DNA of 64,000 nt from assembly GCF_009914755.1 (NCBI RefSeq), contig NC_060938.1; one strand, given 5' to 3'. The DNA is from the human T2T-CHM13v2.0 reference genome, Homo sapiens. The position numbers were made by a program, and so were the translations under genes. Positions 44,788-48,569 of this stretch are shown piece after piece. Within the stretch, counting starts at the first letter, position 1; each line of letters starts with the position of its first letter. The notes below the pieces were generated by a model. That model searched no databases and had not been told where the DNA came from. It saw nothing but the letters and a program-made list of their open reading frames with translations.

Positions 44788-45080
44788 ATTTTTTTTTTTT
44801 GAGACGGAGTCTTGTTCTGTTGCCCAGGCTGGCGTGCAGTGGCGTGATCTTGGCTCACTGTAACCTCCACCTCCCATGTTCAAGCGATTCTCCTGCCTCA
44901 GCCTCCTTCGTAGTTGGGATTACAGGCGCATACTACCATGCCCGGCTAAGTTTTGTATTTTTAGTAGAGATGGGGTTTCACCGTCCTGGCCAGGCTGGTC
45001 TCGAACTCCTGACCTCATGATCTGCCTGCCTTGGCCTCCCAAAGTGCTGGGATTACAGGTGTGAGCCACTGCACCCGGCC
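44788..45080 (-). mobile_element. AluS
   Basis: antisense Alu consensus. Confidence 0.92.
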
Positions 45081-45394
45081 TATTTTATTTTTCAAACTGC
45101 GTATTTTACCTCTTAAAGGTTTACATATAAACTTTTACATATATCATCTTCCCTAAATTTGGAAATCTAAACAATGAAATCATTTAGAACTGCATTCTAA
45201 AAGAGGTTTTAAGTGATGCGTAAAGGCATGTTAAATTTTCCAAAGCAAAAGGGAGATAAACCAATTAACTTTCTATGCACATTCATAAATGTGAATGAAA
45301 GTAGTAAAAGCATTTAAAAATCAACCATGGATGTAGATATGTAAAGTAGTATTACTATATGTAGAGAGTATAGCTAATATACTCAAATGAATAC

Positions 45395-45561
45395 CTTTTC
45401 TCTTTCTACTTTAAGCCTCTCTTTTTCTTCTTTTTTCTTTAGTCTCTCTTCTTCAACAATTTTTTTCAATTCTTCCCTCTTTTTCTCTTTATCTTCTTTT
45501 TCTTTTTTCTTCGCTTCTAGGGCATCTGCTTTTTCTCTTTTTAATTTAGCCTTTTCAAAAG
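45395..45561 (-). CDS. BAZ1A: BAZ1A exon 9 (167 nt; K/E-rich FEKAKLKREK...LKVEREK)
   Basis: tcacag|CTTT ... AAAG|gtattc; phase 1-0. Confidence 0.96.
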
Positions 45562-46264
45562 CTGTGAAGAAAAATCAAACTTAGAACTATATATATAGAC
45601 AAAATAACACTTGGCAATTTTTTTGATGTAACAACAGAATCCTTGAAATAATTTAAAGTTAAATGAGATTAGTAGAGACTCTTAAAATTCCTACAGGGAG
45701 CCAGCAGATTATTAAAACAGGAAAAGCAAATTGGCTAAGTTTATGACAAACTACAGTACTGGGACAAACATATCTGTGCCTTTGAAAGCCCTAATACCCA
45801 AAGTGTGATCTGAAGACCAGCAGCAAGGTTATCATCACCTTGTTAAAAAATGCAGAATCTCATTCCCCCACCAGACCTACTAATTTAGAATCTTCATCAT
45901 TTTGACAAGATCCCCAAGTGATTCATATGTACATTCAAGTTTGGGAAGCAATGTTTTAAAAGGCTGTGTGAATCAAACAAAATAGCCCCAGTTTGTAAGC
46001 CCTGGAAACTCAAACTTCTGCTTAATCTAGCACTAAGCAATTTAATAGGGAATATGCAAGACCATGAAATTTAAAGAGATGAAGCGGTCTTATTTATAAA
46101 ACAAGCAAACAAACAAATAAACAATAGTTATCTGATAGAAAAAATAACTGCACTTCAAAACAATTAACCAGAAACATGCCATTTCGGAAACATCCCCCAC
46201 TCAGGCACAGAGAAATATTCTTTCTTATTCCTAATTAGCTTTTGGAAACAATGTTAAAACTCAC

Positions 46265-46364
46265 CCAGTGACTTCATTTCTTCTTGTTTCAAAAGTTTAT
46301 CTCTTTCTTTAGTAGCTTTGCTCCTATAACTTGCAAGAGTCTGTTTATTAGCAACATTGTCCTC
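46265..46364 (-). CDS. BAZ1A: BAZ1A exon 8 (100 nt; EDNVANKQTLASYRSKATKERDKLLKQEEMKSL)
   Basis: ttttag|GAGG ... CTGG|gtgagt; phase 0-1. Confidence 0.96.
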
Positions 46365-46465
46365 CTAAAAAACAAACCAAAATAGTATGCCTGGTTCTTA
46401 TAGTAAGAATAAAAAGCAAAAAATTTAAAACTCTCACCAATTACACTTTCTTTATACTAAAATGA

Positions 46466-47662
46466 TTTTTTTATTTTTTTGAGACAAAGTCTCGCTCTAT
46501 CCCCCAGGCTGGAGTGCAGTGGTGTGATCTCGGCTCACTGCAACCTCTGCCTCCTGGGCTCAAGTGATTCTTCTCCCTCAGCCTCTCGAGTAGCTGGGAT
46601 TACAGGCATGTGCCACCACACCTGGCTAATTTTTTTTTGTATTTTTAGTAGATACAGGGTTTTGCCATGTTGGCCAGGCTGGTCTTGAACTCCTGACCTC
46701 AAGTGGGCTACTCACCTCAGCCTCCCAAAGTACTGGGATTACAGGTGTGAGCCACTGTGCCCAGTCTAAAATGAGTTTTTATTCTAAAGTATAATTGGGC
46801 CGGGCACAGTGGCTCATGCCTGTGATCCTAGCATTTTGGGAAGCCACGGCGGGTAGAATACTTGAGGTCGGGCGTTTGAGAGCAGCCTGGCCAACATGGT
46901 GAAACCCCATCTCTATTAAAAATGCAAAAATTAGCTGGGCGTGGTGGCATGCACCGGCAGCCCCAGCTACTCAGGAGGCTGAGGCAGAACTGCTTGAACC
47001 CAGGAGGTGGAGGTTGCAGTGAGCCAAGATCGTGCCACTGCACTCCAGCATGGGTGACAGAGTGAGACTCCATCTCAAAAAAAAAAAAAAAAGTGTTACT
47101 GAACTGTTAATAACTCTAATCTTAGTAATAAACAGAACATGAGTTAACTCTGTAGCTCTATAAATTATTACAAGAATATCTCAGGAAAAACTGGTAATAT
47201 ATAGAAAGATCCTTAAAAATGCATTAGAAAAACAAACTCTCAGCTTACTTTATAAACTAGATGGTGTAAATATCAAATATAAAAGATGCAGAAAAAAGAC
47301 ATACCAGAAAAATTCTTGTGGCCAATGTCAAATTTTATTTTTATTTTATTTCTTCTAAGAATGTCTCTAACCTAATTAATTTGTGTAGTTTTTTGTTTTG
47401 TTTTGTTTTGTTTTTAAGATGGAGTCTTGGCTTTGTTGTCCAGGCTAAAGTGCAATGTGGCATGATCTGGGCTCACAGCAACCTCAGCCTCTGTCTGCCT
47501 CCCGGGTTTGAGCAATTCTCGTGCCTCAGGCTCCTGTATTTTTAGTAGAGACAGAGTTTTGCCATGTTGTCCAGGCTAGTCTAGAACTCCAAGACTCAAA
47601 TGTCCACCCACCTCAGCCTCCCAAAGTACTGGGATTACAGGCAAGAGCCACTGTGCCCGGCT
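46466..47662. mobile_element. Alus 46466-46766(-), 46798-47092(+), 47388-47662(-)
   Basis: Alu consensus. Confidence 0.88.
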
Positions 47663-48024
47663 GCATTATTGCTTTTTTAAAGCCCCCTATAGCTTCTTCC
47701 TGTCAGAATTTATTGCTCTTTATTCTACACTTCAATCCCATAGTTTATTCCCTGCTTTACATTTCAGTAATTGCTTATGTGCTTGCTTCCACTTTGGTAT
47801 AGAATCCTTGTGGTATGAAAGTCATATCTAATTCACACCTGAAACTTCTACAAGCCTCATTGCTGAGCAGTTATCAACATATAGTACACACTTACATACT
47901 TTTTGGTGAGGTAATGAGTTTCTTCCTCTAGGCTATGGATGTGAGGGGAGACAAACATACTTCTTGATTCTGAATACTGTTTTACTAACAGTGAAAATGT
48001 AGTTTTAATCAATTCTGTACTTAC

Positions 48025-48159
48025 TTGACTAATATGTATTCGTTTGGGAGGTCTCCCTCTTCGTCTGTTAGCAGGACTGAAGATAAATGTGGGTGGATCA
48101 TCAGGGAAGAAATAAGAAAAATCTTGTTCTGCTATTTTATACGTTGAAAGAGATGATGC
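48025..48159 (-). CDS. BAZ1A: BAZ1A exon 7 (135 nt; ASSLSTYK...NRRRGRPPKRIHISQ)
   Basis: attaag|GCAT ... TCAA|gtaagt; inside ORF 47857..48198. Confidence 0.96.
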
Positions 48160-48269
48160 CTTAATAAAACAAAGACATAGGGTACAATAATAACACATTA
48201 GTAAACAACATACAGATATGCCCTAACATGTCATATGGCCGCTATTAATGCTGTTAAAAGATCAGGATA

Positions 48270-48569
48270 GGCTGGGCACAGTGGCTCATGCCTGTAATCC
48301 CAGCACTTTGGGAGGCCGAGGCGGGCGGATCATGAGGTCAAGAGATCGAGACCATCCTGCCCAATATGGTGAAACCCCATCTCTACTAAAAATACAAAAA
48401 TTAGCTGGGTGTGGTGGCACACGTCTGTAGTCCCAGGTACTCGGGAGGCTGAGGCAGGAGAATCACTTGAATCTGGGAGGTGGAGGTTACAGTGAGCAGA
48501 GATCGTGCCACTGCACTCCAGCCTGGTGACAGAGTAAGACTCCATCTCAGGAAAAAAAAAAAAAAAAAA
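48270..48569 (+). mobile_element. AluSc-like
   Basis: Alu consensus; aaagat-aggata TSD. Confidence 0.92.

What the first reader, a model, noticed from the sequence alone, without database searches (positions are those of the whole stretch)
44788..48569. Exons 7-9 circRNA cassette with an endless open reading frame
Seen: exons 7-9 (span 45395-48159) are bracketed by inverted Alus about 315 nt and 110 nt away (44788-45080 minus, 48270-48569 plus). They share a perfect 24-nt complement (44853-44876 with 48474-48497) that includes the same non-consensus GTTACAG variant. Exon lengths 135+100+167 = 402 nt = 134 codons, both ends are phase 0, the back-splice reads GAA AAG|GCA TCA with no stop, and exon 8 has an in-frame ATG (EEMKSL). 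Established: flanking inverted Alus promote back-splicing. Inference: the circle could support rolling-circle translation of a repeating RGRP plus K/E-helix polymer, and the reciprocal e6-e10 skipped mRNA is also in frame.
Basis: partly seen in the sequence, partly recalled or inferred. Interest (0 to 1): 0.75.

Follow-up and report, generated by a model that had tools for sequence, protein, structure and literature searches.

The report
Rare, already-recorded BAZ1A exon 7-9 circle
Three coding exons of the human gene BAZ1A, bracketed by oppositely oriented Alu repeats, do form a circular RNA that is already listed in published tables, but it is very rare and its stop-free reading frame is an arithmetic by-product, not evidence that it makes protein.

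Summary
Inverted Alus lie 110 and 314 nt away and share a 24-nt perfect complement.

None of this is unusual here. Of 190 contiguous exon blocks in the window, 61 are multiples of three and 86 have inverted Alus within 2,300 nt. Half of 462 inverted Alu pairs share a perfect run of 24 nt or more.

The predicted circle exists in print. It is listed as hg19 chr14:35269430-35272194 (span 2,765) in RNase R-treated blood-cell RNA-seq (PMC10613662), and with 3 junction reads in an ENCODE-wide table. The dominant BAZ1A circle has 5,450 reads there (PMC6487579).

I found no evidence of translation. BAZ1A is absent from the held supplements of three circRNA peptide studies. That absence is weak, because trypsin cuts exactly at the junction.

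Verdict: a real but minor by-product circle, probably Alu-assisted. Stop-free circle frames are a known class, about 14% of circRNAs. Low interest.

The parts
48270..48569 (+). Alu in intron 6, antisense in the BAZ1A pre-mRNA, 110 nt upstream of the exon 7 acceptor
   Evidence: Read. Arm of inverted repeat I1. blastn block 48267-48562. Two sub-threshold Metazoa_SRP matches on the plus strand.
48025..48159 (-). Exon 7, 135 nt, phase 0 at its 5' end; encodes the R-G-R-P stretch
   Evidence: AG/GT splice sites and frame, translation. No Pfam family at E up to 10.
46265..46364 (-). Exon 8, 100 nt; holds the only in-frame ATG of the circle (46277-46275), with an AAGAAG hexamer ending 3 nt before it
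45395..45561 (-). Exon 9, 167 nt, 58% A, K/E-rich; its 55 whole codons fold as one continuous helix. Holds an 11-of-12 A track at 45508-45497 and the published primer site at 45511-45529
   Evidence: Composition. AlphaFold2 helix 2-54, mean pLDDT 96.5, single sequence. A track. Primer match.
44789..45080 (-). Alu in intron 9, sense in the pre-mRNA, 314 nt downstream of the exon 9 donor
   Evidence: Read. Arm of I1. Two sub-threshold Metazoa_SRP matches on the minus strand.
44853..44876 (.). 24-nt perfect complement to 48474-48497, including the shared GTTACAG variant
   Evidence: Exact and not extendable. At the median for inverted Alu pairs in the window.
49187..49477 (-). Competitor: sense Alu in the same intron 6 as the upstream Alu; pairing with it would favour linear splicing
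   Evidence: I2, 194 nt, 85% complementary, 696 nt between the arms. Duplex -454.1 kcal/mol against -475.5 for the focal pair.
42448..42739 (+). Competitor: antisense Alu in the same intron 9 as the downstream Alu
   Evidence: Duplex -469.3 kcal/mol with 44788-45090. Longest perfect run 32 nt, equal to the focal pair.
46468..47088 (.). Two inverted Alus inside intron 7 (46468-46757 sense, 46798-47088 antisense), about 40 nt apart by blastn blocks. Each could also pair with a flank Alu to give an exon 7 circle or an exon 8-9 circle
   Evidence: (I4, I5, I6, I8). An exon-7-only circle is listed with 2 junction reads.

Best explanation
Exons 7-9 of BAZ1A are occasionally back-spliced, exon 9 donor to exon 7 acceptor, into a 402-nt exonic circular RNA. 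The step is most likely helped by base-pairing between the antisense Alu 110 nt upstream and the sense Alu 314 nt downstream, which brings the two splice sites together. The circle is a rare by-product of splicing in an Alu-dense gene and is already present in published circRNA tables. Its stop-free frame follows necessarily from a coding exon block whose length is a multiple of three and which starts and ends at phase 0. It most likely acts as a non-coding RNA with no dedicated function, or at most yields trace protein.

Shown: the sequence facts and the published back-splice records. Inferred: the Alu dependence and the lack of meaningful translation.
For: Existence.
- PMC10613662 (passages and Results read) lists has_circ:chr14:35269430-35272194, BAZ1A, hg19. 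The RNA was RNase R-treated blood mononuclear-cell RNA, and a circle counted only if called by both CIRI2 and CIRCexplorer2. It is one of 30,990 circles in that study.
- The span of 2,765 equals window 45395-48159.
- The paper's printed primer matches exon 9 once, at 45511-45529 on the minus strand.
- PMC6487579 Table S2, ENCODE sheet, lists chr14 35269429-35272194 with total_junction 3. It also lists 35272059-35272194 (135 nt, the length of exon 7) with 2 reads, which fixes the mapping.

Rarity. In the same table the BAZ1A circle 35331249-35331528 has 5,450 reads, 35261980-35331528 has 732, and 35269429-35331528 has 9.

Alu help is plausible.
- The total distance to the inverted Alus is 411 nt.
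- That is inside the 2,300-nt limit within which 45% of circRNAs, against 22% of host exons, have inverted Alus (PMC6487579 passage).
- The focal duplex is the strongest of 30 local pairs, at -475.5 kcal/mol.

The open frame is ordinary.
- 61 of 190 exon blocks are multiples of three, and 30 of 190 also have inverted Alus in the flanking introns.
- 14% of human circRNAs carry a host-frame rolling-circle ORF (PMC9242994 passage).

No translation evidence. BAZ1A has 0 occurrences in the 4, 2 and 7 held supplement files of PMC9242994, PMC10952939 and PMC10943130.
Against: Alu dependence is not shown, and near-equal competitors lie closer within the same introns: -454.1 kcal/mol at about 0.9 kb start to start in intron 6, and -469.3 kcal/mol at 2.3 kb in intron 9.

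Translation cannot be excluded.
- The frame has an ATG with a purine at -3.
- The circle holds 4 AAGAAG hexamers, one ending 3 nt before the ATG. AAGAAG is the element whose mutation lowered circPFAS translation in PMC9242994.
- That paper reports, judged by mass spectrometry, that 50% of translatable circRNAs undergo rolling-circle translation (abstract).

The peptide absences are weak. Exon 9 and exon 6 both end in lysine, so trypsin releases the same first peptide of exon 7 from the linear protein and from a circle product. Supplements were held only in part.

The blood-cell study ranked this circle among its strongest up-regulated ones, so it may be less rare in some cell states. Its qRT-PCR did not agree with the sequencing, however.
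Confidence: 0.75

Rival explanations
1. One reading: the circle is engaged by ribosomes at the exon 8 ATG and translated round and round into a concatemer of the 134-residue unit (an R-G-R-P stretch plus a charged helix), with some cellular effect.
For: The native frame has 0 stops, and there is one in-frame ATG with G at -3. An AAGAAG hexamer ends 3 nt before the ATG, and there are 4 in the circle. Rolling-circle translation of coding-only circles was shown with reporters and three endogenous circles in PMC9242994 (passages). iORF circles such as circEGFR are listed as validated in the review PMC11724312 (passages). The exon 9 part is predicted as a stable long helix.
Against: Only 3 junction reads across the ENCODE set. 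BAZ1A has 0 occurrences in the held supplements of three peptide studies, which is weak evidence. PMC6487579 found no support for circRNA translation from ribosome profiling, mass spectrometry or over-expression (abstract and passages). IRES-like hexamers are expected by chance in any sequence longer than 50 nt (PMC9242994). Each lap crosses an 11-of-12 A track, and after a slip there a stop follows within 5 or 13 codons; that such tracks cause slipping is recalled knowledge, not tested here. Concatemer products were rapidly degraded in 2 of the 3 cases tested in PMC9242994.
Confidence: 0.05
2. The circle is real but does not depend on this particular Alu pair. It arises through other Alu pairings, through RNA-binding proteins, or from an exon 7-9-containing lariat made when exon 6 is joined to exon 10.
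For: 7 cross-intron inverted Alu pairings are possible between introns 6 and 9, counted by hand: 1 antisense x 1 sense, plus 3 sense x 2 antisense. The exon 6-10 join is in frame, so a skipped mRNA would escape frame-dependent decay. PMC6487579 argues that many circles form without Alu help. Circles sharing only one of the two splice sites are also listed: exon 7 alone, and exon 9 joined to a far upstream exon.
Against: The focal pair is the closest to both splice sites and the strongest duplex locally. The hub's transcript table lists no transcript that skips exons 7-9.
Confidence: 0.17
3. The back-splice reads are artefacts (template switching or mis-mapping) and no circle exists.
For: Very low counts in ENCODE: 3 reads. 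The qRT-PCR in PMC10613662 disagreed with its sequencing, and the printed reverse primer is identical to the forward one.
Against: Two independent studies report the junction, each requiring two callers. It lies exactly at annotated splice sites, and one study used RNase R-treated RNA.
Confidence: 0.03

Closest known systems
Alu-dependent exonic circRNAs (back-splicing aided by inverted Alus in the flanking introns; Jeck 2013 and Zhang 2014 as cited in PMC6487579)
   Same: A multi-exon circle using annotated splice sites, with inverted Alus at 110 and 314 nt. The total of 411 nt lies inside the 2,300-nt limit.
   Different: Dependence on the Alus is untested. Competing within-intron pairs are nearly as strong. 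Abundance is very low.
Circles with rolling-circle / infinite ORFs (rcORF, iORF), e.g. circEGFR, circNFIB, circTau 12-10, circPFAS (PMC11724312 and PMC9242994)
   Same: The length is a multiple of three, the host frame has no stop, and there is an in-frame ATG.
   Different: No junction peptide, polysome or reporter evidence was found for the BAZ1A circle. The validated examples have such evidence.
hsa_circ_0006137, the commonly reported BAZ1A circle (279-280 nt, single exon, outside this window)
   Same: Same host gene, exonic, and listed in the same tables.
   Different: Different exon. It has 5,450 ENCODE junction reads against 3, and it carries a circBase number, whereas PMC10613662 prints none for the exon 7-9 circle.

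Membership tests
Alu-dependent exonic circRNA | Back-splice junction joining the downstream exon's donor to the upstream exon's acceptor at annotated sites | tested here: met
   Published tables only; no raw reads were examined. hg19 35269430-35272194 and 35269429-35272194 with 3 reads. Span 2,765 equals 45395-48159. The printed primer maps in exon 9.
Alu-dependent exonic circRNA | Resistance to RNase R | tested here: inconclusive
   Detected in an RNase R-treated library, but no treated-versus-untreated comparison was seen.
Alu-dependent exonic circRNA | Inverted Alus in the two flanking introns, close to the splice sites | tested here: met
   277 nt, 83% complementary. Total distance 411 nt, rank 11 of 190 blocks. 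Opposite-strand SRP-like matches.
Alu-dependent exonic circRNA | Loss of the circle when an Alu is removed, or sensitivity to DHX9 / ADAR1 | not testable with these tools
   Needs a minigene or genome edit. The coordinate 35272194 occurs only in file 2 of the PMC6487579 supplements, not in the file with the DHX9 data set.
Rolling-circle (infinite) ORF circRNA | Length divisible by three with no stop in one frame | tested here: met
   402 nt; 0 stops in frame 0, 8 and 15 in the other frames.
Rolling-circle (infinite) ORF circRNA | In-frame start codon | tested here: met
   One ATG at circle position 223, context GAAGAAATGA.
Rolling-circle (infinite) ORF circRNA | Evidence of translation: junction peptide, phased footprints or concatemer ladder | tested here: inconclusive
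   BAZ1A has 0 occurrences in the 4, 2 and 7 held supplement files of three studies. Trypsin cuts at the junction, so the absence is weak. riboCIRC and TransCirc could not be queried.

The most novel reading that the evidence does not exclude
In some cell states, for example activated blood cells, where one study saw the circle rise, the exon 7-9 circle is loaded by ribosomes through its A/G-rich IRES-like hexamers. It is then translated for several laps into a concatemer of R-G-R-P stretches spaced by long charged helices. Such a product might bind DNA or chromatin multivalently and interfere with BAZ1A-containing remodelling complexes.
Probability: 0.03. Interest if true: 0.5.

Novelty: already known. 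Interest (0 to 1): 0.12.

Why it matters
It matters little as a discovery. The circle is already in public tables, it is among the rarest BAZ1A circles, and stop-free frames are a known, common property of coding-exon circles. The useful results are calibration ones. In an Alu-dense gene, 'inverted Alus plus a multiple-of-three block' picks out many exon blocks (30 of 190 here), so it is not a signal by itself. For this circle a standard tryptic search cannot see the junction, which matters for anyone who wants to test its translation.

Tried and rejected
- Name searches for circBAZ1A, circ-BAZ1A, circ_BAZ1A and 'circRNA BAZ1A' found 0 papers.
- The search for BAZ1A with hsa_circ gave 15 papers. 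I opened 4 of them: 2 name BAZ1A as host of another circle, hsa_circ_0006137; 1 lists the exon 7-9 circle by coordinates without a circBase number; 1 lists BAZ1A only as an mRNA. No circBase number for the exon 7-9 circle was found.
- The coordinate search over six numbers gave 63 papers, 20 of them listed. Only PMC10613662 holds the circle; one other that I opened matched a PubMed id by chance. The hg38 numbers in that search came from a recalled offset and may be wrong.
- Supplement look-ups for BAZ1A in PMC9242994, PMC10952939 and PMC10943130 found nothing.
- Pfam on the three exon translations: no family for exons 7 and 8, and only a chance-level Gemin6_C match (E 0.43) for exon 9. The 'AT-hook-like' label for R-G-R-P is therefore a recalled resemblance only.
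- The shared GTTACAG variant is rejected as a sign of co-adaptation. It adds no pairing beyond what two consensus copies would have, and it occurs in 3 of 22 copies of the motif.
- Conservation in non-primates was not examined, because no eukaryotic genome collection is held.
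Full report
**What is in the sequence.** BAZ1A runs on the minus strand.
- Exon 7 (48025-48159, 135 nt), exon 8 (46265-46364, 100 nt) and exon 9 (45395-45561, 167 nt) all have AG acceptors and GT donors.
- Joining exons 5-25 leaves one frame without stops. That frame puts the first base of exon 7 at phase 0.
- The three exons sum to 402 nt, or 134 codons. Round the circle the native frame has 0 stops and the other two frames have 8 and 15.
- The junction reads GAA AAG|GCA TCA.
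- There are four ATGs. Only the one in exon 8 (46277-46275; circle position 223) is in frame.
- The exon 6-to-10 join stays open.
- The plus-strand Alu at 48270-48569 lies 110 nt upstream of exon 7, antisense in the transcript. The minus-strand Alu at 44789-45080 lies 314 nt downstream of exon 9.
- The two form a 277-nt inverted repeat, 83% complementary.
- Each Alu gives two sub-threshold matches to the signal-recognition-particle RNA model on the expected strand, as a dimeric 7SL-derived element should. That these are 'Alu' rests on this and on my recognition of the sequence.
- The 24-nt perfect complement is exact and cannot be extended.

**Is it more than chance?** No.
- The window holds 54 Alu blocks.
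- Among 462 inverted pairs of the 43 blocks of 250 nt or more, the median longest perfect complement is 23.5 nt, and half reach 24 nt. The focal pair's longest run is in fact 32 nt, elsewhere in the element.
- The shared GTTACAGTGAG variant is in 3 of 22 copies of that Alu motif, either variant. It adds no pairing that two consensus copies would lack.
- Of 190 contiguous blocks of exons 6-24, 61 are multiples of three. Any such coding block starts and ends in the same phase, so it is 'endless' in the native frame by construction.
- 99 of the 190 have inverted Alus in the flanking introns, 30 have both properties, and 11 have both with the Alus within 1 kb.
- By summed distance to the nearest inverted pair, exons 7-9 (411 nt) rank 11th of 190. 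86 blocks lie within 2,300 nt.

**Competition.** Duplex energies of the local Alus are nearly flat.
- The focal pair is -475.5 kcal/mol.
- The downstream Alu with an antisense Alu in its own intron 9 is -469.3 kcal/mol.
- The upstream Alu with a sense Alu in its own intron 6, about 0.9 kb away start to start, is -454.1 kcal/mol.
- Within-intron pairing favours linear splicing. This competition model is recalled from Zhang et al. 2014, which I did not read here.
- Intron 7 holds three more Alus that could give an exon 7 circle or an exon 8-9 circle.

**The circle in print.**
- PMC10613662 (passages, methods passages and Results read) sequenced RNase R-treated RNA of blood mononuclear cells and mapped it to hg19. 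A circle counted only if found by both CIRI2 and CIRCexplorer2.
- It lists has_circ:chr14:35269430-35272194, host BAZ1A, log2 fold change 1.88, among 30,990 circles.
- The printed forward primer matches the window once, inside exon 9.
- The paper's qRT-PCR for this circle was 'inconsistent' with the sequencing. Its table prints the same sequence as forward and reverse primer, and gives no circBase number for this circle although it does for two others.
- PMC6487579 (abstract, passages, methods section 21, Table S2 in part) lists chr14 35269429-35272194 in its ENCODE sheet with total_junction 3. It lists 35272059-35272194, the 135 nt of exon 7 alone, with 2.
- Other BAZ1A circles there have 5,450, 732 and 9 junction reads.
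- The stored copy of that file is cut, so the list may be incomplete.

**Translation.**
- PMC9242994 (abstract and passages) reports that 14% of human circRNAs have a host-frame rolling-circle ORF. It also reports that short IRES-like hexamers occur by chance in any sequence over 50 nt, and that mutating an AAGAAG lowered translation of one circle.
- The BAZ1A circle has four AAGAAG, one ending 3 nt before the ATG. So it is a formal candidate of a known, large class.
- BAZ1A has 0 occurrences in the held supplement files of that paper (4 files), of PMC10952939 (2 files) and of PMC10943130 (7 files).
- This absence is weak. Exon 6 and exon 9 both end in lysine, so trypsin gives the same first peptide of exon 7 from the linear protein and from any circle product.
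- PMC6487579 concludes from ribosome profiling, proteomics and over-expression that circRNAs are generally not translated.
- Each lap also crosses an 11-of-12 A track (45508-45497). A slip there meets a stop within 5 or 13 codons. That such tracks promote stalling and slipping is recalled knowledge.

**The encoded unit.** Exon 9's 55 codons are predicted as one continuous helix with mean pLDDT 96.5, from a single sequence. Pfam finds nothing in any of the three exons beyond a chance-level match.

**Verdict.** The most likely account is a rare, Alu-assisted by-product circle of BAZ1A whose open frame is arithmetic. Alu dependence is inferred, not shown. Rolling-circle translation remains possible in principle but has no support, and the low abundance argues against any consequence. 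The kind is known and this member is already recorded.

Noticed in passing
window 46468-47088 (intron 7): Two oppositely oriented Alus lie about 40 nt apart by blastn blocks (25 nt between the repeat arms, I5), a ready-made long hairpin. The junction region 46740-46824 gives sub-threshold matches to the mir-1972 and mir-3473 models on both strands (51 and 44 bits against gathering scores of 90 and 71.8).
   Followed up: partly
window 39917-39918 (donor of exon 11): The intron after exon 11 starts with GC instead of GT. It is the only one of the 21 exons checked with a non-GT donor.
   Followed up: no
window 45829-45927 (intron 8): Sub-threshold mir-544 model matches on both strands (31.9 and 24.2 bits against a gathering score of 66.5). 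This suggests a palindromic interspersed repeat, not a miRNA gene.
   Followed up: no
window 48025-48159 and beyond the window: The ENCODE table of PMC6487579 also lists an exon-7-only circle of 135 nt (2 reads) and a circle from exon 9 back to a far upstream exon (9 reads). The dominant BAZ1A circle (5,450 reads) lies outside this window.
   Followed up: partly
PMC10613662, Table 1: The forward and reverse primers printed for the BAZ1A circle are identical, so the published assay cannot be reproduced from the table.
   Followed up: no
window 52625-52712, 45395-45561 and 40840-40935: Exon 6 and exon 9 both end in lysine. Exon 10 begins with the same four residues that end exon 9, so peptide-level tests of any junction in this region need care.
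   Followed up: partly
whole window: Very high Alu load: 54 blastn blocks in 64 kb, several of them double-length. Inverted pairs therefore flank about half of all exon blocks.
   Followed up: yes
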